DNA of 42,300 bases, taken from the IMG/VR virus record IMGVR_UViG_2778261297_000006, positions 1 through 42,300 of that record; one strand, given 5' to 3'. The position numbers were made by a program, and so were the translations under genes. The DNA comes from a virus (lineage: Duplodnaviria > Heunggongvirae > Uroviricota > Caudoviricetes). Of the stretch, positions 1 to 42,300 are shown piece by piece; position 1 is the stretch's first letter, and each line of letters begins with the position of its first letter. Under the pieces are notes generated by a model that was not told the origin of the DNA, did no database searches, and was given only the letters and a program-made list of their open reading frames with translations.

Positions 1-1284
1 TTACTTCTTCGCCTCTGCAACCACTTTACTACCCACGCCGCGGTTATTGTATTCCCACATGCGGTTGTAGTTAGTGTCATTCAGATTGCGCTGTATTTCG
101 TCGTTATCATCTACGCTGCCGGTATTACCCGCAAACGGACGATTAGAGATCACCGCATCGGCCCACGGTTTAGCCGTGTTAAAACCTTCGTTGATGGCGC
201 TATCACGGATCACCACCTGACCGTTGGTATTGGCATCAACATCCAGCGAGCGGCCCAGTTGCGCCACACCATCACCGAAAGCATTGAAACGGCTGTTTAC
301 GGCGAGGAAACCGTAGTAAATGTTGGACAGCGTAGCCGGTGCAAACACATACGCTTCTTGCTGAGTACGTGAGTTCACCACGCGGAATTCGGTGTTATCG
401 AACACCACTGCGCCGCGACCAGAAACGATATCCACATCCCCTTCAATGTAGCTGTTGGTCACCAGCGTACGCGGCTGACGATTCGTTTCCAGACGGTTCT
501 GCACACCGCTGTTGGTGACAAAGAAGGTGTTCTGACGACCGAGAATGTTAACGTTGTTAATCTGTACCTGGTCACCATCAGTACGCAGTGCCACCGCCGG
601 ATGGTTACCTGCATCTACGCTATCGCCCAGCGTGTTTTCGATGGTCAGATTTTGCAGTTGCAGGCCATTGTTTTGTGACCAGAAGACCGCAGAGCAGAGA
701 ACACCGATACTGTCGCTACGTTTGCTCTGGCAGCTATCGTACATATACCACGCTGGTTTACCTGGCATATATTTGCCGCGCGGGTTGACGTCGTGACGCC
801 AGTCGGCAGGGCTCATGCCACCATCAAGGGAAAGCCCAATCTTCACATCAATCGGTTTTTCACCTGTACCGTACAGAGTAATTCCACCCGGAGCGGCAGG
901 GACATATACCGTTCCCTGATACTCACCAGGCATCACGGCAATATACTGGCGCTTGTTGGTACGCTTGATAATTGCCGCATCTACCGCCGCCTGAATCGTG
1001 GTATGCGTTACACCTTGAGTGCCCGCCGGGCCGACAACAAATTCAGGTTGCGCAGGCAGGGTAATCGGGGAAGGATTCCACGCTGCAGCACCTGGTGTCA
1101 GGGATGCAAAATAGTGTTGAGCATCGAAATTCTGCGCTTCTTTTGCCGACAGAATCGGGCGAGAAGAGGTACCAGGCGCGGTTTGATCAGAAGGACGTTG
1201 ATCGGGCGGGGTTGAGCTACAGGCGGTCAGCGTCACGCCAAAAGCCAATGCCAGCGCCAGACGGGAAACTGAAAATGTGTTCAC
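1..1284 (-). CDS. ybhC: Host lipoprotein YbhC (pectinesterase-like / acyl-CoA thioesterase family), complete 427 aa
   Basis: Full-length minus-strand ORF with an N-terminal lipoprotein signal (lipobox LTAC) and beta-helix-like NxG-rich body. Recognised from memory as the gene flanking the lambda attB site in E. coli-type chromosomes; not searched. Confidence 0.8.
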   Translation of the reverse strand: MNTFSVSRLALALAFGVTLTACSSTPPDQRPSDQTAPGTSSRPILSAKEAQNFDAQHYFASLTPGAAAWNPSPITLPAQPEFVVGPAGTQGVTHTTIQAAVDAAIIKRTNKRQYIAVMPGEYQGTVYVPAAPGGITLYGTGEKPIDVKIGLSLDGGMSPADWRHDVNPRGKYMPGKPAWYMYDSCQSKRSDSIGVLCSAVFWSQNNGLQLQNLTIENTLGDSVDAGNHPAVALRTDGDQVQINNVNILGRQNTFFVTNSGVQNRLETNRQPRTLVTNSYIEGDVDIVSGRGAVVFDNTEFRVVNSRTQQEAYVFAPATLSNIYYGFLAVNSRFNAFGDGVAQLGRSLDVDANTNGQVVIRDSAINEGFNTAKPWADAVISNRPFAGNTGSVDDNDEIQRNLNDTNYNRMWEYNNRGVGSKVVAEAKK

Positions 1285-34037: not shown

Positions 34038-35450
34038 TTGGCTACATGGCAACAGGCTGGTAATTCAGGCGCGCTTCTTGCCGGGTTAGGCGGCATGAAC
34101 TCCAACGCTCCAAGAGCAAGTGATGCAGACGCCACGCTTGCATACATTCGACAGAATAATGAGATGGAGCGTTCAGGACGTAATAACGTTGGCTTGCAGG
34201 CTTTGCAGGGCATTTCATCTGTCATGGATATGTATAAGCAGATGGATCAGCAGAAGCGGCAGCAAGAGTTTCAGCAGGCTTATGCTGATGCATATACATC
34301 TGGTGACCGCGATGCAATGCGAAAGCTGGCATCACAGTATCCTGAGCAATTTGACGCTGTAAGAAACGGCATGAAATTTGTCGATGAAGACCAGCGTTCC
34401 ACTGTCGGTACACTGGCAGCAAGTGCCAGGCTCGCAGCTTCATCTCCAGAAGCCATGATGTCATGGTTGCAGAACAACTCATCTGAGCTTACTCGTGCCG
34501 GAGTAGACCCTCTGGATGTGGCGAAAATGTATCAGCAAAATCCACAAGGTTTCACAGAGTTTGTTGATCACCTTGGAATGGCTGCACTTGGTCCAGAACA
34601 ATATTTTCAGGCGCAAGACAGAATCGTTGGGCGTGAGATTGATCGCGGAAAACTTGCAGAGACAATCCGCAGCAATCAGGCTGGTGAAGCACTTCAGGCG
34701 AGAGGGCAAAACCTTTCCTATCAGTCAGCAATGACTGGGCACAATATCGCAGCACAACGCTTGGCTCTGGATCAGCAAGAGTTCGGGTTTAAAATGCAGC
34801 AAGCGCAGGAAAAGGCTCAGCAGTTGATTAGCGAAGCACCTAAGCTGTCAGTAAACATGGAAAAAGGCATCGAGACGGCTGTAAACAATGCTACAGCATC
34901 ATCAAACTCAGCCAATTCTATGAGTGCGCTTGCTCAACAGTTCAGAGCAGAAAAACCAACGACAGGTTTGTTCGGTAACGCACAGAACATGTTCGCAAAA
35001 CTTACCGGAAGCGATACAACATTGCGTGATTTGCGCATTCGCCAAAATGCCCTTGTTAACAGTCAGGTTCTTAAATTCCTACCTCCCGGCCCAGCAACGG
35101 ATAAAGACGTTGAGATCGTTCGACAGGGTGCTCCAACTGACATGGATAACCCTGAGACGGTCGCAAGATGGCTTGATGCAATGGCAAACCTTGAGCGACG
35201 AAACGCGCAGTTTAATGAGTTTAAAGCCGAGTGGATGAGCGCGAATGGCAACCCTGGACAATCGCGTAATGGCGGTCAGATATTGGGGTTGGATGTTAAA
35301 AAAGGTGAATCATTGGGGAGTGCCGTTAAGCGGTATATGTCAATGAATACTGACGCAGCGCCAGCACAAGATTCGACACCTTCAGGAGAACCACGGAATA
35401 AGGTTGGATCATATACCTCAAAATCAGGCATTCAATTTACGGTGGAATGA
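34038..35450 (+). CDS. Ejection protein, P22 gp20 type (470 aa)
   Basis: Size and position; TTG start with GGAGG upstream. Confidence 0.7.
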   Translation: MATWQQAGNSGALLAGLGGMNSNAPRASDADATLAYIRQNNEMERSGRNNVGLQALQGISSVMDMYKQMDQQKRQQEFQQAYADAYTSGDRDAMRKLASQYPEQFDAVRNGMKFVDEDQRSTVGTLAASARLAASSPEAMMSWLQNNSSELTRAGVDPLDVAKMYQQNPQGFTEFVDHLGMAALGPEQYFQAQDRIVGREIDRGKLAETIRSNQAGEALQARGQNLSYQSAMTGHNIAAQRLALDQQEFGFKMQQAQEKAQQLISEAPKLSVNMEKGIETAVNNATASSNSANSMSALAQQFRAEKPTTGLFGNAQNMFAKLTGSDTTLRDLRIRQNALVNSQVLKFLPPGPATDKDVEIVRQGAPTDMDNPETVARWLDAMANLERRNAQFNEFKAEWMSANGNPGQSRNGGQILGLDVKKGESLGSAVKRYMSMNTDAAPAQDSTPSGEPRNKVGSYTSKSGIQFTVE

Positions 35451-37453
35451 TGAAAGTAACTGCAAACGGTAAGACATTTACCTTTCCTGATGGTACGAGC
35501 ACCGAAGATATTGGCACCGCCATTGATGAGTATTTTGCTGGTCAGTCAGCACCAACACAACAAGGTGTTCAGCAATCGCCAGCAGACAACTCACTTGCAT
35601 CAGGATATGCACAGATTGCCACTCAGCAGAAGGAAGGACTAGATCGCTCTGCTGAGCAAGGGGCTGTTTTAGGTGCTGCAATGCGCGATGCCGTTACCGG
35701 TGAAAGCCGAATGACACCAGAAATGGAGAGACTGCAAAATGTTGGGTCTGCTCCAGAGCTTAATAGCTTAAGCACTGATGCGCTGCGTGCTGGATTGGGG
35801 CAGCTATTTGGTTCAGACGCTTCACAGGAGAAAATACTGCAAAGTATTGGCGGGAAAATCCGGAAGGATGAGAAGGGAAATTCCATAGTCACCCTTCCTT
35901 CAGGGGAATATGCACTTAACAAGCCTGGTTTGTCACCGCAGGATATAACGTCATTCTTGGCAAATGCTCTTGCATTCACTCCAGCAGGTAGAGCTGCGTC
36001 TGTTGTAGGTGCAACACTAAAATCAGGCGCTACTGATTTAGCTTTACAGGGTGCCACTAAGATCGCTGGCGGTGAGAATGTTAATCCAGTTCAAACTGCA
36101 ATTTCTGCTGGTCTTGGTGGGGTACTGAAGGGTGTAGAAAACACCGCAAGCGCAGTGTCTCGTTCTGCTATGGGTAAGATTGCTCCTGAAAAACAAGCTC
36201 AGATTGACTTTGCCAAGCAGAACAACTTGCCACTGATGACAACAGATCTTGTGGAACCGGGAACAAATATTGGTAAGCAAGCACGAGCTATGGCTGAGCG
36301 AATCCCAATAGCCGGAACAGGTGGGATAAGAAATGCACAGCAAAAGGCCAGGGAAGATTTAGTTAGAACATTTAGCGATAATGTTGGTGGAATATCTGAC
36401 GCACAACTTTACCAATCAGCTACTCGTGGTCAGCAGCAATTTATTCAGGCTGCTGGCAAGCGGTACGACAGGATCATCAGTTTGATGGGGGATACTCCTG
36501 TTGACATCACTGGAACAGTGAAAGCAATTGATGAGCAGATTTCCAAGTTAACTCGCCCAGGAGTATCGCAAGACCGCTCAGCTGTTTCTGTCCTTCAACA
36601 GTTTAGAAATGACATCACCAGTGGTCCAAATAACCTGCAATTAGCTAGAGAAAACCGTACAAACTTACGTAAGCGCTTTATGGCAGCACCTGACGAGGTC
36701 GATAGAGATACGCTGGAGAAAGCTGCGCAGTCTGTTTATAACGCATACACAACAGACATGAAAAAAGCGGTTGGCGCAAAACTAGGTGCGAAGGAAGCGC
36801 AAAACATGTCGCGTGTTGATCGTTCTTGGGCAAAGTTCAACGACATGATGAGCAATACACGTGTCCAAAAAGCTATTCAGAGTGGTAAAACAACGCCAGA
36901 AGATGTCACTAAACTAGTATTCAGCCAAAGCCCAGCGGAAAGGGCGCAACTTTATCGATTGCTTGATGATAGTGGGCGTCAAAATGCTAGAGCAGCACTT
37001 GTTCAGCGTGCAATGGATAAGGCGACAAGCGATTCAGGAAAGCTTAGCGTTGAGAAGTTTATTAATGAAATGAAAAGGAATCGGAAGCAGGCTGAGACGT
37101 TCTTCAGAGGAGAGCATGGGAAACAGCTTGATGGGATAATGAAATATCTTGATTCCACTAGACAGGCAGCTACAGCTGCCGCAAGCCCACTAACAGGGCA
37201 AATGGTAGCTGGTCCAGCAGCGATGATAACAGCTCTTGCGTCTGTTACAAATCCAATGTTTGCAAAAGTTGCGGCAGTTGGAGCTGGTATCGGTATGGCT
37301 GGCAGGGGCTATGAGTCACGCGCGATGAGGAACGCATTACTAAAGTTAGCAAACACGCCAAAAGGAAGTACTGCTTATGATAGAGCGATCAGACGGGTAT
37401 CTGAAACTCTTACACCTCTAATTCAGGCTTCAAGTGAGAAAGCCCAGCAGTAA
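35447..37453 (+). CDS. Ejection protein, P22 gp16 type (668 aa)
   Basis: Position; last gene of the late block before the immI-like region. Confidence 0.7.
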   Translation: MMKVTANGKTFTFPDGTSTEDIGTAIDEYFAGQSAPTQQGVQQSPADNSLASGYAQIATQQKEGLDRSAEQGAVLGAAMRDAVTGESRMTPEMERLQNVGSAPELNSLSTDALRAGLGQLFGSDASQEKILQSIGGKIRKDEKGNSIVTLPSGEYALNKPGLSPQDITSFLANALAFTPAGRAASVVGATLKSGATDLALQGATKIAGGENVNPVQTAISAGLGGVLKGVENTASAVSRSAMGKIAPEKQAQIDFAKQNNLPLMTTDLVEPGTNIGKQARAMAERIPIAGTGGIRNAQQKAREDLVRTFSDNVGGISDAQLYQSATRGQQQFIQAAGKRYDRIISLMGDTPVDITGTVKAIDEQISKLTRPGVSQDRSAVSVLQQFRNDITSGPNNLQLARENRTNLRKRFMAAPDEVDRDTLEKAAQSVYNAYTTDMKKAVGAKLGAKEAQNMSRVDRSWAKFNDMMSNTRVQKAIQSGKTTPEDVTKLVFSQSPAERAQLYRLLDDSGRQNARAALVQRAMDKATSDSGKLSVEKFINEMKRNRKQAETFFRGEHGKQLDGIMKYLDSTRQAATAAASPLTGQMVAGPAAMITALASVTNPMFAKVAAVGAGIGMAGRGYESRAMRNALLKLANTPKGSTAYDRAIRRVSETLTPLIQASSEKAQQ

Positions 37454-37461
37454 AAAGTTGG

Positions 37462-37782
37462 TTAGCGGTTGATGGTTGCTTTTTTCGGGTCATACCATCT
37501 CGGCCATTCTTTCAGGAATGGGAATGAGTCGGGTGCGTGGTTCTTTTTGTACGATTTAAGCAGCCTTAACCGCTCAATCGCACACTCATAAACCTCTTGT
37601 TGCCCTGTAGTCATCTCGGTCCATGAAAGGTGATCCATTGATAAGACAACGTTTTCAGCTTCTTTTATGAGGGCGTTTTTATTTCTCACCGCAGCAGCAT
37701 GGCTGACAGAGCAATCCTGCCATATTCTTAAAATCCAAATAGCTAAGCAGATGAAAAAAATGGTAGATAGCGATATATACAC
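37462..37782 (-). CDS. Membrane-anchored hypothetical protein (about 106 aa from the GTG at 37782)
   Basis: AAGGAGG 5 nt upstream of the GTG; N-terminal TM helix YISLSTIFFICLAIWILRIW. The track's longer ORF to 37998 would overlap zincin-like gene B on the other strand. Confidence 0.45.
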   Translation of the reverse strand: MYISLSTIFFICLAIWILRIWQDCSVSHAAAVRNKNALIKEAENVVLSMDHLSWTEMTTGQQEVYECAIERLRLLKSYKKNHAPDSFPFLKEWPRWYDPKKATINR

Positions 37783-37812
37783 ACCAACCTCCTTAGTTTT
37801 TCGCAGGATACC

Positions 37813-38178
37813 ATGAAAAAAGTAAACATTGGAAACGTACCAAAGATGCTCGTACCGCTCTTTGAGAGCGGTACGATTGTGTTTTGCAGAGACTTTCCAG
37901 AATGGCAACGCCTGCATCAAAAACTTGGCGTGGACGTGCAGGACTCGGATGCCAACGGAGCGTCTCATACAATGAGCAGCGAGAATGGTGTTTTGCATGT
38001 GATAGGCGTGTTCAATGGCAAACTATCTACCATTGCCCATGAGTGCGCTCACATGGCATTCGATATCTGCTCAAGGGTCGGTGTTGATGTTGAACCAGGA
38101 AGAGCCAACGAGACTTACTGCTACTTAATGAGCAGGCTTGTTGAGTTCTGCGAGCGACATATCAAAAAGCCGGAGTGA
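37813..38178 (+). CDS. Minimal zincin-like protein B (HExxH...E, 121 aa); paralog of 22523..22912
   Basis: HECAHMAF and ANETYCY motifs shared with copy A; on the late-operon strand directly after the gp16 homolog. Confidence 0.6.
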   Translation: MKKVNIGNVPKMLVPLFESGTIVFCRDFPEWQRLHQKLGVDVQDSDANGASHTMSSENGVLHVIGVFNGKLSTIAHECAHMAFDICSRVGVDVEPGRANETYCYLMSRLVEFCERHIKKPE

Positions 38179-38202
38179 CCCGGCTTGATTATTACTTTTT
38201 TT
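38164..38202. terminator. Bidirectional hairpin terminator between zincin-like gene B and the convergent membrane gene
   Basis: Stem aagccgg/ccggctt flanked by an A-run on one side and a T-run on the other. Confidence 0.5.
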
Positions 38203-38416
38203 GGTATGTTAAGAATGGCAAGTCGCCAGTGTACCCCAAGCGGAAAAGCTCCAATTGCTTATCTCTTATGGATAAAAAATAATCGTTTCTTGCCTTTTTA
38301 AGCCACAACCAGCCGATCATCAAGATGAATAATATTGATATTATTGGCATCGGGGAGATCAACACCACTCCGATGAATAATGACGCTAGCAGCACCGATA
38401 AAATAGCAGAAACCAT
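38192..38416 (-). CDS. Small two-helix membrane protein (74 aa), AT-rich
   Basis: Two hydrophobic segments (SAILSVLLASLFIGVVLI and IISILFILMIGWLWL) and a basic C-terminal tail; GGGAG ribosome-binding site. Confidence 0.5.
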   Translation of the reverse strand: MVSAILSVLLASLFIGVVLISPMPIISILFILMIGWLWLKKARNDYFLSIRDKQLELFRLGYTGDLPFLTYQKK

Positions 38417-38441
38417 ACTAATCTCCCACTAAGGTAACAAT

Positions 38442-38627
38442 ATGACCATAGAAGAACGCCTGAACAACATCGAGTTGAATCAAACCCTGCTTGACCAGCG
38501 ACTTTCAGATCTTGAACTTAAAGATCTGGATGCGCAAATATCGGAAGCAGAAGCCAAGCTCTCCAGCCTAAACCACCGCAAGAAGCAAATCCGCAACAGA
38601 ATTACTCAGGGACGCGGAAGCTGTTGA
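38442..38627 (+). CDS. Possible small coiled-coil protein (61 aa); coding status uncertain
   Basis: ATG with an AAGG-type site upstream; overlaps the 3' end of the convergent 69-aa gene by 26 nt. Confidence 0.3.
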   Translation: MTIEERLNNIELNQTLLDQRLSDLELKDLDAQISEAEAKLSSLNHRKKQIRNRITQGRGSC

Positions 38628-38811
38628 GGTGGGATGCTAGGTCTCTATCGTTAAAATCAAGGCTGCTAATCATTTCATTGTAAATAGCGTTTTTATCTTC
38701 CATTGGCAGTCTTGAGTAAACCAGACACAGAGCATATTTCAGGGAGTTTAGCTCTTTCTCTAGCTCTTCCTTGCTTGATGTTTTTGACTTAATAAACTGT
38801 TTTTTATTCAT
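38602..38811 (-). CDS. Hypothetical protein (69 aa), translationally coupled downstream of mnt
   Basis: Its ATG overlaps the mnt stop codon (ATGA). Confidence 0.5.
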   Translation of the reverse strand: MNKKQFIKSKTSSKEELEKELNSLKYALCLVYSRLPMEDKNAIYNEMISSLDFNDRDLASHLNSFRVPE

Positions 38812-39044
38812 TTTGCATCCTTACCATACATGGTTTTCAGTGTTTCAATCAGCGCATCCCTGAATTTGTCAGCCTCTTTCTGAGCAAATTCATTGCTATT
38901 AAGCGATCTACCACAAACAGCATCTTCGATAATCTGTATTATTTCAGCATTCATGGAACGCTTGTTATGTTGCGCCCTGGCTTTAACCTTTGCCTTTAAC
39001 TCTTTGGAAATCCTGATATTTATTTGCGGCTCTTCGCGTGACAT
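38808..39044 (-). CDS. mnt: Mnt-like ribbon-helix-helix repressor (78 aa)
   Basis: INIRISKELKAKVKARAQHNKRSMNAEIIQIIEDAV resembles the P22 Mnt N-terminal domain (recall); divergent from arc/ant. Confidence 0.75.
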   Translation of the reverse strand: MSREEPQINIRISKELKAKVKARAQHNKRSMNAEIIQIIEDAVCGRSLNSNEFAQKEADKFRDALIETLKTMYGKDAK

Positions 39045-39097
39045 ACCACCTCCATAGCATTTTGGTGATATTACTATTGCATCACTGCGATCACAAT

Positions 39098-39114
39098 GGT
39101 ATAACGGTTATACC
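39098..39114. promoter_or_regulatory. 17-bp perfect palindrome GGTATAACGGTTATACC in the mnt/arc divergent promoter region (candidate operator)
   Basis: Perfect dyad the same length as the P22 mnt operator, immediately upstream of the arc ribosome-binding site. Confidence 0.45.
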
Positions 39115-39132: not shown

Positions 39133-39306
39133 ATGATAGTCAAGTCAGACGCACCAAAGTACCCTTTGCGCATCCCATTAGAGGTTAAGTTAGCAATCGA
39201 GAAGTCAGCGAAAGAAAATGGTCGCTCAATAAATACCGAGATGGTAATGCGGTTAGTGGATAGTTTAAGGCGGGATAGTTCTAAAGGTAATCTAGCAAAA
39301 AGTTGA
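39133..39306 (+). CDS. arc: Arc-like ribbon-helix-helix repressor (57 aa)
   Basis: [32 protein letters not shown] resembles P22 Arc (recall); GGAGG 4 nt upstream of the ATG at 39133. Confidence 0.7.
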
Positions 39307-39380
39307 AGCCCCAACTGCGGGAACAGTCAGGGCTTCGGTATCAACAAATCGGATTAGGAAATATTGACATGAAAAGTATA
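39296..39380 (-). ncRNA. Possible sar-like antisense RNA across the ant start (about 70 nt)
   Basis: Minus-strand -10 candidate TATACT (plus 39375..39380) and a minus-strand hairpin (39305..39336) plus U-run in the arc-ant spacer; boundaries approximate and the -35 is weak. Confidence 0.3.
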
Positions 39381-40347: not shown

Positions 40348-42300
40348 ATGACAGACATTACAGCCAATGTTGTGGTCAGCATGCCTTCGCAACTCTTCAC
40401 TATGGCTCGTTCTTTTAAAGCCGTAGCCAATGGAAAAATTTATATCGGTAAAATTGACACTGACCCGGTAAATCCTGAAAACCAGATTCAGGTTTATGTA
40501 GAGAACGAAGATGGCTCTCACATTCCTGTTTCGCAACCAATCATCATTAACGCTGCCGGATATCCGGTATACAACGGACAGATTGCCAAGTTTGTGACTG
40601 TGCAAGGCCATTCCATGGCTGTATATGATGCGTACGGTGCGCAGCAGTTCTATTTTCCTAATGTGCGGAAGTATGACCCTGATCAATTTTCTGTATGGGC
40701 AAAAAATCATTTCAGACTTAACTTCTATTTTAAGTCTGATATTAGTTTTTCATCAGGTGGACATATTGATGATGAGCGCTATGCTGTTCTTTATGATAAC
40801 GATCCTGATGGAAACATGTATTTTTATGCCAGGAAATATATAGCAGAAGGCGGTTATGATGTTGATGCTGGAAGCCATCCAGATGATAATTGGATATGCG
40901 TTGGACTACTTAATGGCTTTAACTTAAACACCCCAGAGAACTTCGGCGCCAAACCTTATTCTGAAAGTGATTGTTTAAATGCAATTAACATGGCAATTAA
41001 AACAGGGTTTATTGAGTTAACGCCTGGTTGTACATATTTTGTTAGCGATGAAGTTGTTATCCCATCGTATTTAGTGATGGAAACAAACGGCGCAACTATT
41101 AAAGCGATGAGTGGCTATTCATGGGGTGGAAAGGCTGTAGTTCGCGCCAGCAAAAAACCAGTAGGAACATCCCCGGATCTTTCATTGCCTGAACAACAAG
41201 TTCGTGGAATTAGACACATTGGTACATTAAATATTGATGCTAACAATGTTGCGCCTTACGGTTTTTATGGTTTTGGTGTAGTTGCAGAATCTGCCACAGA
41301 CATTATATATGCTTATAATGCCACAGAAGTTGGAATTGTACTTCTTGGGAGTTGGTATCATAAAGTAAATCAATATATGGGAATTGATTGTGCAAGAGGT
41401 GTATCTTTGGCGCATGGTTTCTCCGGTGAAACCGGAGATGTAAACGTTAATGGTGTTGAATTTGGTGTCGTCGCCGCGTATAACACATCAAAATCTTTGT
41501 CCTATGGGTATGATCCGTATTCATCATCTTTAACCCCACAACTCATAGGTGCCGGTGTCACCCTCGGGCAAGGATTGGCATCAAGAATAGGAACATTAAT
41601 AGCTGAAACCACAGCAGGCGCTGGTTTAGCTACTGTTAACGCTGTTAGTTGGTCTGTTGGTTCTATGTACTTCGAAAAATGCAGTGAAGCGCTTGAAGAT
41701 AGTGCAGAGCCTGATATTGCGATATTATCAACTACAGGAAATGTCGAGGACCACGTATTTGACGTCGGTAATATCCATTTTGGCATAGGGACTGGTATAC
41801 TGCAAAGAGCGACGGCAAGTGAGTTTCTCAACATCCAATCCATATACCGTATAGACAATAAAAAAACATGGCATAGTTCTTCAAAGGCGTCTTCAAGTTT
41901 TGTAAATTTCGTAAACTATTACGTTCTCAACCCTTATGATTACGTTAAACCGGTTCAACTGACTAATGACGTAGGCAAGGATGTTATAAGTTCATCGGCA
42001 ATGCTTAACTTTAAGGATTTTTCAAATACGCCAAATATCCCATTTTTTTATACTGGCGGTGATCTTGATATTAATATAAGCATATCAGAGGGTTCGATTA
42101 TTGGGCTTGGTATTCAGGTTCAGTCTGAAGATGGAATTGAATATATAACATGCACATCATCACCGTTTTCAGCAAAGCTAACAAAAAGGAGAAATGCTTA
42201 TTCTGTTTATTGGGTATCAATGGGAACTCCAGTTCAAGCAGCTACTGGCATGGGGGCGATTATAATAACAAAACAAAAAACTTCTCAATGGCTTCGTTAG
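40348..42300 (+). CDS. Tailspike (650 aa): P22-type N-terminal head-binding domain fused to a divergent AT-rich receptor-binding domain
   Basis: N-terminal [11 protein letters not shown]...[19 protein letters not shown]...VTVQGHSMA matches the P22 gp9 head-binding domain by recall; the remainder is unrecognised; stop codon at the last 3 nt of the window. Confidence 0.85.

What the first reader, a model, noticed from the sequence alone, without database searches (positions are those of the whole stretch)
37454..38811. Cargo cluster in the sieA-equivalent slot between the ejection genes and mnt
In P22 the interval between gene 16 and mnt holds the superinfection-exclusion gene sieA. Here the interval holds unrecognised genes instead. 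On the minus strand there is a 69-aa ORF translationally coupled to mnt (ATGA overlap at 38808..38811), a 74-aa two-helix membrane protein (38192..38416) and a membrane-anchored protein of about 106 aa (37462..37782). Interleaved on the plus strand are a zincin-like protein (37813..38178) and a possible 61-aa coiled-coil ORF. The minus-strand genes share orientation with mnt, a lysogeny-expressed repressor, and the small membrane proteins are AT-rich. Start codons of divergent neighbours are only 25-30 bp apart, which is unusually tight and suggests overlapping promoters or a miscalled ORF.
Basis: partly seen in the sequence, partly recalled or inferred. Interest (0 to 1): 0.65.

Follow-up and report, generated by a model that had tools for sequence, protein, structure and literature searches.

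The report
Variable cargo genes beside phage mnt

Summary
All five ORFs exist at the stated coordinates, and substitution patterns show that all five are real coding genes. They are not one cargo cluster. They are at least four modules that assort independently, inside the known "ant moron" between ejection gene 16 and the tailspike gene of P22-like phages.

- **Conserved core.** Window 37779..38200 is 98% identical to P22 and HK620. It holds the ribosome site and GTG start of the sieA-slot gene, the putative PsieA promoter, hkcC and a bidirectional terminator.
- **The sieA slot.** To the left of that shared GTG, 80 related phages carry at least 10 unrelated genes. Every one starts with a membrane or signal segment. 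Here the gene is ORF106, which is not a SieA homologue.
- **ORF106 relatives.** Distant relatives sit directly after the cI repressor (the lambda rex position) or at the end of the mnt operon. This argues for prophage expression and a protective role at the membrane, which is inferred, not shown.
- **Plus-strand genes.** hkcC (a small HExxH zincin with an SprT-like fold) and ORF61 lie on the late-operon strand. They are probably not lysogenic cargo.

The miscalled ORF is a 178-aa RefSeq call antisense to hkcC. Verdict: a new member of a known kind, of moderate interest.

The parts
35447..37453 (+). Gene 16 homologue (ejection protein). It forms the left border of the variable region. This allele is always linked to ORF106.
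   Evidence: One search lists the ORF. RefSeq names it an injection protein. Its C-terminal type occurs with ORF106 in 30 of 30 loci. All 57 E. coli genomes matched over at least 80% of the query, which spans the 3' end of this gene 16 allele and ORF106, carry both; no match held the gene 16 end alone.
37462..37782 (-). ORF106: a 106-aa protein with one N-terminal membrane helix and a helical soluble domain. It occupies the exact position of P22 sieA and HK620 hkcB but is unrelated to both.
   Evidence: It starts with GTG and has an AAGGAGG site at 37788..37794. phrog_10450 matches from residue 1. 15 of 19 variable sites fall at codon position 3. The family reaches down to 28% identity and always has an N-terminal hydrophobic segment. 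The structure model has pLDDT 87.5. It has no similarity to SieA.
37779..38200 (.). Conserved 422-bp block shared with P22, HK620 and many prophages at 97-99% identity. It holds the start codon and ribosome site of the slot gene, the putative PsieA promoter, hkcC, the bidirectional terminator and the last codons of the next minus-strand gene. Unrelated sequence flanks it on both sides.
   Evidence: 58 phage records, query 480..901. One search shows that similarity begins exactly at the GTG and ends within the final KK-stop codons of orf59a/ORF74.
37805..37843 (-). Equivalent of the putative PsieA promoter, lying inside the 5' end of hkcC. It is the proposed source of ORF106 transcription.
   Evidence: The P22 annotation of PsieA maps to 37813..37843. 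An extended -10-like TGgTATCCT lies at 37813..37805. In P22, 85 bp upstream of sieA suffice for exclusion (PMC10883804). No transcript has been mapped here.
37813..38178 (+). hkcC: a 121-aa small zincin-like protein with an invariant HExxH motif and a Glu 20 residues further on. It lies on the late-operon strand.
   Evidence: The protein is identical to HK620 HkcC and matches phrog_1365. Homologues reach down to 43% identity, with H76, E77, H80 and E100 invariant. pN/pS is 0.02. The model has pLDDT 90. Its fold matches many small phage proteins, some named SprT-like or metalloprotease.
38167..38186 (.). Bidirectional intrinsic terminator. It overlaps the hkcC stop codon and lies just after ORF74 on the minus strand.
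   Evidence: One search found it on both strands. P22 annotates it as t_mnt and HK620 as bidirectional tORF59A.
38192..38416 (-). ORF74: a 74-aa protein with two predicted membrane helices and a charged tail. It replaces P22 orf59a and is always paired with a divergent ORF61.
   Evidence: It has no family match. Only homologues of 92% identity or more exist in 5.8 billion proteins. An 85%-identical copy differs by 22 synonymous and 8 conservative codon changes. ORF61 follows it in every architecture seen.
38442..38627 (+). ORF61: a 61-aa charged protein, presumably coiled coil, with a basic tail. It lies on the late-operon strand and its 3' end overlaps ORF69 by 26 nt.
   Evidence: phrog_7586 matches full length. 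36 sites vary, 21 of them at position 3, and pN/pS is 0.06. The Pfam XhlA match scores only 14 bits against a cut-off of 34.7. It occurs with different neighbours on both sides.
38602..38811 (-). ORF69: a 69-aa soluble protein, translationally coupled to the gene upstream (here mnt).
   Evidence: phrog_16466 matches. The ATGA overlap is kept in 37 of 37 loci. The upstream partner is one of four Mnt-type proteins or a 77-aa membrane protein. 13 of 18 variable sites fall at position 3.
38808..39044 (-). mnt homologue (Arc/MetJ-type ribbon-helix-helix repressor). It is the first gene of the minus-strand operon.
   Evidence: Pfam Arc, E 5.7e-13. It has a divergent arc gene and sar RNA beside it.
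39068..39105 (.). Overlapping divergent promoter candidates that correspond to P22 Pmnt (minus strand) and Pant (plus strand).
   Evidence: PWM scan. The best minus-strand site in the region is TTGTGA-17-TAATAT at 39096..39068. On the plus strand, TTGCAT-17-TATAAC at 39077..39105 has a TG extension. These are consensus matches only.
39301..39367 (-). sar antisense RNA of the immI region (context).
   Evidence: Rfam RF00262, 71.6 bits, E 3.5e-14.

Best explanation
The interval is the left half of the "ant moron" of a P22-like E. coli prophage. It is a patchwork of small modules, and its two strands are used at different times.

**Minus strand.** I propose that this strand is read in the lysogen. 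A Pmnt-like promoter would drive mnt, the coupled ORF69, and then ORF74, stopping at the bidirectional terminator at 38167..38186. Beyond that terminator, a promoter equivalent to P22 PsieA lies inside the start of hkcC. It would drive ORF106 through a ribosome site and GTG start that P22 sieA, HK620 hkcB and at least eight other unrelated envelope proteins also use.

**ORF106.** It is held in the inner membrane by one N-terminal helix. Its roughly 80-residue helical domain probably faces the cytoplasm. I think its most likely role is to protect the lysogen at the membrane, by blocking or aborting infection by incoming phages. This would be analogous to SieA but not homologous to it.

**Plus strand.** hkcC (a small SprT-like zincin) and ORF61 lie on the strand of the late operon. 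They are most likely expressed when antiterminated late transcription runs from gene 16 through this region to the tailspike gene.

**Shown:** the gene structures, their coding status, the mosaic boundaries, and the positions occupied by relatives.

**Inferred:** the transcription pattern, the topology of ORF106, and every function.

**Confidence.** The figure of 0.6 is for the whole picture. It is about 0.85 for the organisation and about 0.45 for a protective role of ORF106.
For: **Coordinates and signals:**

**Coding status of all five ORFs:**

**Conserved block.** Window 37779..38200 is 98% identical to P22 and HK620. The block starts at the GTG of the slot gene.

**Slot content.** In 80 IMG/VR loci the slot behind that GTG holds at least 10 unrelated families, or nothing. 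All 10 families have an N-terminal hydrophobic segment.

**PsieA.** In P22, sieA with 85 bp of upstream sequence is sufficient for exclusion (PMC10883804).

**Positions of ORF106 relatives.**
- The relatives in phage mEp043 and in an Enterobacter-type prophage lie 14 and 4 nt after the cI/S24 repressor gene and before N. This is the lambda rex position. The hhalign probability is 98.7%.
- The Providencia-type relative is the last gene of a tightly packed mnt operon.

**Plus-strand genes.**
- Published work states that PLate transcription passes through the ant moron into gene 9 (PMC2629481).
- hkcC homologues in siphovirus prophages lie in the late-gene orientation between tail genes. One has a terminator directly upstream and no room for a promoter.
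- Minus-strand genes are G+C-poor, while hkcC and ORF61 match the late genes.
Against: - No transcript or phenotype data exist for this prophage.
- In a Kapi1 lysogen, whose mnt-ORF69-ORF61 block is 98% identical, mnt RNA was not detected above threshold (PMC12922286). The minus-strand operon may therefore be weakly expressed or conditional.
- The PsieA-equivalent here is only a weak consensus match.
- ORF106 has no similarity to any known exclusion or defence protein.
- ORF106 relatives occur in long-tailed phages that lack gene 16. A mechanism aimed specifically at the P22 ejection proteins is therefore unlikely.
- HkcC matches solved zincin structures only weakly.
Confidence: 0.6

Rival explanations
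1. The minus-strand genes are lysogenic-conversion or housekeeping morons that alter host envelope physiology (stress tolerance, colonisation, membrane homeostasis). They would not protect against phages.
For: No gene matches any defence model. One alternative occupant of the slot is a YobH-like protein, which belongs to a host-type family. The literature says that ant morons probably have non-identical functions. Expression in a related lysogen is low.
Against: The only characterised occupant of the slot is an exclusion protein (PMC10883804). ORF106 relatives also sit in the rex position next to cI, which is a classic place for prophage protection genes. All ten families in the slot are targeted to the envelope, the place where incoming phages are met.
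Confidence: 0.25
2. The five genes form one cooperating system. For example, the HkcC protease could act together with the membrane proteins as a sensor-effector or toxin-antitoxin type of abortive-infection module.
For: The genes are tightly packed, with overlaps and convergent pairs. mnt has weak matches to RHH antitoxin families and overlaps ORF69 in the ATGA manner typical of toxin-antitoxin pairs. ORF69 and ORF61 are always found together.
Against: The modules assort independently. ORF106 occurs without hkcC, ORF74, ORF61 or ORF69. hkcC occurs with ten different left neighbours and with orf59a in place of ORF74. ORF61 occurs without ORF69. hkcC with orf59a also occurs in siphovirus late operons that lack the other genes. 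The genes lie on opposite strands and differ in base composition. ORF69 matches no toxin family.
Confidence: 0.07
3. Some of the small ORFs are not genes, and the region is largely non-coding recombination debris. On this view the 178-aa RefSeq ORF (37462..37998) is the true gene and hkcC is spurious.
For: RefSeq annotates the 178-aa ORF and omits hkcC in the identical prophage. ORF74 has no family match and no distant homologue.
Against: 26 of 31 variable sites in hkcC fall at its own third codon position. That position is the first codon position of the antisense 178-aa frame. phrog_10450 and every ORF106 homologue begin at the GTG at 37782. hkcC homologues reach down to 43% identity with an invariant motif. 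ORF74 shows 22 synonymous against 8 conservative changes. ORF61 and ORF69 also show third-position bias.
Confidence: 0.03

Closest known systems
The "ant moron" of P22-like phages (Villafane, Casjens et al. 2008, PMC2629481), including the P22 immI region
   Same: The location is the same, between the homologues of genes 16 and 9. The region contains mnt, arc, sar RNA and ant. It also contains hkcC, as P22 does. Its other content varies between phages, as published (ten types in sixteen genomes).
   Different: This version carries ORF106, ORF74, ORF61 and ORF69 in place of sieA and orf59a. The exact combination covers at least 80% of the query in only 7 of 5,426 complete E. coli genomes.
P22 SieA (inner-membrane superinfection-exclusion protein; Leavitt et al. 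2024, PMC10883804)
   Same: ORF106 has the same genomic position, strand, start codon, ribosome site and upstream promoter block. Like SieA, it is a membrane protein encoded by a P22-like prophage.
   Different: There is no sequence similarity. ORF106 has one membrane helix where SieA has several. It lacks the FxRYPxEAxxFNK motif. Its relatives occur in long-tailed lambdoid phages, whereas SieA is reported only from P22-like prophages.
Genes downstream of cI in lambdoid prophages (lambda rexAB position); mEp043 gp49
   Same: mEp043 gp49 and an Enterobacter-type homologue belong to the ORF106 family (hhalign probability 98.7%). They lie directly after the repressor gene, where lambda keeps rexAB.
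   Different: ORF106 is not similar to RexA or RexB. In the window the gene lies in the ant moron, not beside cI. No function is known for gp49.
HK620 HkcC / phrog_1365 and small SprT-like zincins of phages
   Same: The protein is identical to HK620 HkcC. HExxH plus a downstream Glu are invariant. The predicted fold matches phage proteins named SprT-like or metalloprotease at E around 1e-4 and TM around 0.64. The best hit among solved structures is SPRTN.
Small membrane-anchored Sie proteins of other temperate phages (lactococcal Sie2009, HK97 gp15, T4 Imm); recalled from my own knowledge, not tested here
   Same: These are short, prophage-encoded or early-expressed inner-membrane proteins that block DNA entry. 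Like ORF106, they are encoded as single small genes at moron positions.
   Different: No sequence or fold relationship was tested or found. The resemblance is only in size, membrane anchoring and genomic logic.

Membership tests
Ant moron of P22-like phages | Lies between the homologues of P22 gene 16 and tailspike gene 9, and interrupts the late operon | tested here: met
   Gene 16 homologue at 35447..37453 and head-binding tailspike from 40348. The layout matches P22 and HK620.
Ant moron of P22-like phages | Often contains the immI genes (mnt, arc, sar, ant) plus variable non-morphogenetic genes | tested here: met
   Arc-domain proteins on both strands. sar RNA at 71.6 bits. An antirepressor is annotated. 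The variable content is shown.
SieA superinfection-exclusion proteins (types A-C) | Detectable sequence similarity to SieA, including the conserved FxRYPxEAxxFNK motif | tested here: not met
   BLASTP of ORF106 against P22 SieA gives no alignment. The motif is absent from the ORF106 sequence.
SieA superinfection-exclusion proteins (types A-C) | Multi-pass inner-membrane topology | tested here: not met
   ORF106 has one hydrophobic segment (residues 1-26). P22 SieA has three segments by the same measure.
SieA superinfection-exclusion proteins (types A-C) | Blocks DNA injection by P22-like phages | not testable with these tools
   This needs plating, potassium-efflux and DNA-entry assays.
Zincin metallopeptidases (gluzincin or SprT-like), for HkcC | HExxH motif on a helix, conserved across the family | tested here: met
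   H76, E77 and H80 are invariant in 19 sequences down to 43% identity. The motif lies in helix 71-88 of the model.
Zincin metallopeptidases (gluzincin or SprT-like), for HkcC | Third metal ligand on the following helix | tested here: inconclusive
   The invariant N99-E100-T101 lies at the start of helix 100-116, 20 residues after H80.
Zincin metallopeptidases (gluzincin or SprT-like), for HkcC | Fold similarity to solved zincin structures | tested here: inconclusive
XhlA haemolysin family, for ORF61 | Pfam XhlA match above the gathering score, and a C-terminal membrane segment | tested here: not met
   The score is 14.1 bits against a cut-off of 34.7. ORF61 has no hydrophobic segment. The 92-aa form that databases name XhlA is an upstream extension into unrelated sequence.
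Type II toxin-antitoxin pair, for mnt-ORF69 | The downstream partner belongs to a toxin family, and the pair is inherited as a unit | tested here: not met
   ORF69 matches no toxin or defence family. Its upstream partner changes between four Mnt types and a membrane protein.

The most novel reading that the evidence does not exclude
The conserved promoter, ribosome site and GTG next to hkcC act as a plug-in socket. P22-like phages would use it to swap at least ten unrelated envelope proteins, each a separate way of protecting the lysogen. On this reading, ORF106 and mEp043 gp49 define a new class of membrane-tethered, cytoplasm-facing protection proteins. Long-tailed lambdoid phages would use this class in the rex position, and short-tailed P22-like phages in the sieA position.
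Probability: 0.3. Interest if true: 0.6.

Novelty: new member of a known kind. Interest (0 to 1): 0.38.

Why it matters
Only about a third of sequenced P22-like phages carry sieA (PMC10883804), and nobody knows what the others keep in its place. This analysis gives a concrete list of replacements, all targeted to the cell envelope and all placed behind the same expression signals. ORF106 stands out because it is present in about 1% of complete E. coli genomes and has relatives in the rex position of lambdoid phages. Each replacement can be tested with a single short clone for a new exclusion or defence activity.

The analysis also has two practical results:

- It corrects a recurrent RefSeq miscall that hides hkcC.
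- It identifies hkcC as a member of a widespread, unstudied group of small zincin-like phage proteins.

Tried and rejected
- **Family searches.** Pfam, NCBIfam, PADLOC and PDB-sequence searches gave no significant match for any of the five ORFs.
- **XhlA for ORF61.** Rejected: the score is below threshold, there is no membrane segment, and the database name rests on an over-extended start.
- **mnt-ORF69 as a toxin-antitoxin pair.** Rejected: ORF69 matches no toxin family, and its upstream partner is swapped between loci.
- **ORF106 matched functionally to its gene 16 allele.** The linkage is absolute in the data. However, ORF106 relatives occur in phages without gene 16, and the P22-type gene 16 accepts at least four different slot genes. 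Plain physical linkage is therefore the simpler reading.
- **Plus-strand hairpin at 37850..37876.** I checked whether it is under compensatory selection. The two stem-improving changes do not covary consistently.
- **Known RNA families.** None lies within 37454..38811.
- **Supplementary expression tables of the Kapi1 RNA-seq paper.** Not held.
Full report
**What the window is.** The window is a complete P22-like (Lederbergvirus-type) prophage of E. coli with some flanking host DNA. The region 37300..39100 is 99.9% identical to prophages in E. coli strains 0H15 to 0H26 and 99.6% identical to one in strain K71-77. Gene 16 (ejection protein) ends at 37453. The immI genes follow: mnt at 38808..39044 (-), arc at 39133..39306 (+), sar RNA at 39301..39367 (-) and ant. 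The tailspike gene then starts at 40348. Villafane, Casjens and co-workers named the stretch between genes 16 and 9 the "ant moron". They found ten types in sixteen genomes and described it as being in rapid flux. They listed sieA, hkcC and orf59a as its extra genes in P22 (PMC2629481). The finding is a further version of that known region.

**Check of the observation.**
- ORF106 starts with GTG at 37782, behind AAGGAGG. ORF74, ORF61 and ORF69 each have a plausible ribosome site.
- ORF106 has one N-terminal hydrophobic segment. ORF74 has a hydrophobic stretch long enough for two membrane helices.
- The minus-strand genes are G+C-poor (0.39 to 0.43). hkcC (0.48) and ORF61 (0.47) match the window average of 0.474.

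**Are the ORFs genes?** I collected related copies from public phage and prophage sequences and counted where they differ.
- hkcC: 26 of 31 variable sites fall at the third codon position, and pN/pS is 0.02.
- ORF106: 15 of 19.
- ORF61: 21 of 36.
- ORF69: 13 of 18 across 37 loci.
- ORF74 had too little variation at first and has no distant homologue among 5.8 billion proteins. One metagenomic copy at 85% nucleotide identity settles it. That copy differs by 22 synonymous and only 8 conservative codon changes.

All five ORFs are therefore under purifying selection as proteins. RefSeq annotates the identical prophage with a 178-aa ORF at 37462..37998 and omits hkcC. That call is the wrong one. 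The third codon positions of hkcC are the first positions of the antisense frame. In addition, the PHROG family and every ORF106 homologue begin at the GTG at 37782.

**The conserved core and its boundaries.** Window 37779..38200 is 98% identical to P22, HK620 and more than 50 other phage records, while both flanks are unrelated. An alignment shows where the similarity starts and stops. It starts exactly at the complement of the start codon of the minus-strand gene. It ends within the last codons (KK-stop) of the next minus-strand gene. Between those points lie:
- the ribosome site of the slot gene;
- the putative PsieA promoter as annotated in P22, which maps to 37813..37843;
- hkcC;
- a hairpin at 38167..38186 that reads as a terminator on both strands and is annotated as one in P22 and HK620.

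**What sits in the sieA slot elsewhere.** I examined 80 IMG/VR loci that carry this core. The gene beginning at the shared GTG belongs to at least 10 unrelated families, and 19 loci have no gene there. The families are:
- SieA;
- two HkcB types;
- a 129-aa protein with a signal peptide;
- proteins of 62, 75, 68, 99 and 149 aa;
- ORF106.

All ten families begin with a membrane or signal segment. Only the 68-aa protein has a Pfam match above the family cut-off (YobH-like). The P22-type gene 16 is found with four different slot genes or with none, so the slot does exchange independently of gene 16. The gene 16 allele of this window behaves differently. It is always linked to ORF106, in 30 of 30 loci. 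In 5,426 complete E. coli genomes, 57 matched at least 80% of a query spanning the 3' end of this allele and ORF106, and no match held the gene 16 end alone.

**ORF106.** It is not a SieA homologue.
- An exhaustive profile search of 1.8 billion representative proteins found only about a dozen relatives. All are about 100 residues long, all have an N-terminal hydrophobic segment, and they share conserved KN-LI-EA and SYKKNHAP...WP motifs.
- The relatives come from E. coli, Salmonella, Morganella, Providencia and Enterobacter.
- The structure model (pLDDT 87.5) is one long helix covering the membrane segment and a stalk, then a second helix and an extended tail.
- No charged residue precedes the membrane segment and basic residues follow it. 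By the positive-inside rule, the soluble domain probably faces the cytoplasm. This is an inference.

The informative evidence is where the relatives sit:
- In lambdoid phage mEp043, the homologue gp49 lies 14 nt after cI and before PL and N (hhalign probability 98.7%).
- In an Enterobacter-type prophage, the homologue lies 4 nt after the S24 repressor gene. Both positions are where lambda keeps rexAB.
- In a Providencia-type P22-like prophage, the homologue is the last gene of a tightly packed mnt operon, convergent with gene 16.

In three different arrangements, then, the family is attached to a lysogeny repressor gene or to PsieA. In P22, sieA plus 85 bp of upstream sequence is enough for exclusion (PMC10883804). 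The same 85 bp are about 95% identical here. I therefore think ORF106 is expressed from the prophage and acts at the inner membrane to protect the lysogen. Because relatives occur in long-tailed phages, a mechanism aimed only at the P22 ejection proteins is unlikely. Whether ORF106 blocks entry or aborts infection cannot be decided here.

**hkcC.** The protein is identical to HK620 HkcC.
- Homologues down to 43% identity keep S72, T73, H76, E77, C78, H80 and N99-E100-T101. That is an HExxH motif with a Glu 20 residues further on.
- The model (pLDDT 90) has the order strand-strand-helix-strand-strand-helix-helix, with the motif on helix 71-88.
- Against predicted viral structures there are 24 hits at E 1e-3 or better, with TM scores up to 0.82. 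They come from many temperate and virulent phages, and the few that are named are called SprT-like or metalloprotease.
- Homologues of 57-60% identity in Klebsiella oxytoca and Rosenbergiella lie in siphovirus prophages, between tail genes and the tape-measure gene, in the late orientation. Each is followed by a convergent homologue of P22 orf59a.

So hkcC with orf59a is a mobile convergent cassette of late operons, and hkcC is not lysogenic cargo. Published work states that PLate transcription runs through the ant moron into gene 9. That gives hkcC and ORF61 a source of transcription without promoters of their own.

**ORF74, ORF61 and ORF69.**
- ORF74 takes the place of orf59a. In every architecture seen, including the 85%-identical copy, it is paired with a divergent ORF61.
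- ORF61 also occurs with other left neighbours (a 60-aa signal-peptide protein, or orf59a). Its right neighbours also vary (ORF69, a Clp-protease-like gene, or mnt directly).
- ORF69 always keeps the ATGA overlap with its upstream gene and always has ORF61 antisense at its 3' end (37 of 37 loci). The upstream gene varies, however. It is one of four different Mnt-type repressors or a 77-aa membrane protein, all ending in KDAK.
- No terminator separates ORF69 from ORF74 on the minus strand. One transcript running from a Pmnt-like promoter (39096..39068) to the terminator at 38167..38186 is therefore plausible.
- ORF61 and ORF69 are rare. They occur in 4 and 3 of 50,697 phage records.

**Evidence that cuts the other way.** RNA-seq of a lysogen of phage Kapi1 did not detect mnt above threshold. 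Its mnt-ORF69-ORF61 block is 98% identical to the one here. The neighbouring genes were not listed among the undetected ones (PMC12922286). [quoted passage not shown] Expression of the minus strand may therefore be low or conditional.

**Verdict.** This is the sieA-equivalent region, and it carries different, mostly membrane-targeted genes. It is a mosaic of independent modules within a known hypervariable moron, and its two plus-strand genes belong to the late strand. It is a new member of a known kind. What is new:
- the shared start-codon socket, with ten envelope-protein families behind it;
- the ORF106 family and its rex-position relatives;
- the hkcC-orf59a cassette in siphoviruses;
- the fold assignment of HkcC.

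Every function remains to be tested.

Noticed in passing
window 37462..37998 (-): RefSeq (PGAP) annotates a 178-aa ORF antisense to hkcC in the identical prophage and omits hkcC and ORF74. Substitution patterns and family alignments show that the real gene is the 106-aa form starting at the GTG at 37782.
   Followed up: yes
window 37850..37876 (+), inside hkcC codons 13-22: This is a 12-bp hairpin followed by TTGTGTTTTG, which looks like a terminator on the late strand. Two synonymous changes make the stem perfect in this window (fold energy -20.8 against -12.5 kcal/mol in P22). The two changes do not covary consistently across 82 copies.
   Followed up: partly
L112 6001..6563 and L114 6001..6556: hkcC homologues with a convergent orf59a homologue (about 75-80% identical to P22 orf59a) lie between the tail-tube/chaperone genes and the tape-measure gene of siphovirus prophages in Klebsiella oxytoca and Rosenbergiella. 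The pair is therefore a mobile cassette shared across tail types. orf59a has a weak YjzC-like Pfam match.
   Followed up: partly
NZ_CP081786.1 and NZ_CP081778.1 (39,448 bp each): Strains 0H26 and 0H24 have a separate 39,448-bp replicon record that carries the same sequence as the chromosomal prophage. This suggests an excised circular phage genome, which would mean an active prophage.
   Followed up: no
L004 2409..2687 (Kapi1_061) and L005 2158..2436: The 92-aa protein annotated as XhlA family is ORF61 with a 31-codon upstream extension into unrelated sequence, antisense to the neighbouring gene. The similarity to the window starts 1 nt before the ORF61 ATG, so the database name is probably an artefact.
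   Followed up: partly
L118-L154, upstream of the ORF69 homologue: In 9 of 37 loci the gene coupled to ORF69 is not mnt. It is a 77-aa membrane protein that ends with the same KDAK residues. This places a mosaic junction inside the last codons of the upstream gene.
   Followed up: no
L006 2426..2962; also several IMG/VR loci: Other prophages carry a 178-aa protein resembling the ClpP proteolytic subunit directly after mnt, in the position of ORF69.
   Followed up: no
L007 3564..4404 (phage N7 ORF15, ORF16): In phage N7 and related loci, ORF106 is preceded on the same strand by a 115-aa protein with two Cys pairs (zinc-ribbon-like) and a 169-aa membrane protein. Together they form an mnt-led operon without hkcC.
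   Followed up: no
H41, E. coli CAVP773: An IS3-family element (ISSen4) is inserted in this region of a related prophage, as in one of the ant morons drawn in the 2008 paper.
   Followed up: no
L115 3501..3797 (mEp043 gp49) and L116 5001..5294: The rex-position relatives of ORF106 form a large E. coli cluster (135 member sequences, some seen on hundreds of contigs). That branch appears to be much more common than the ORF106 branch itself.
   Followed up: partly
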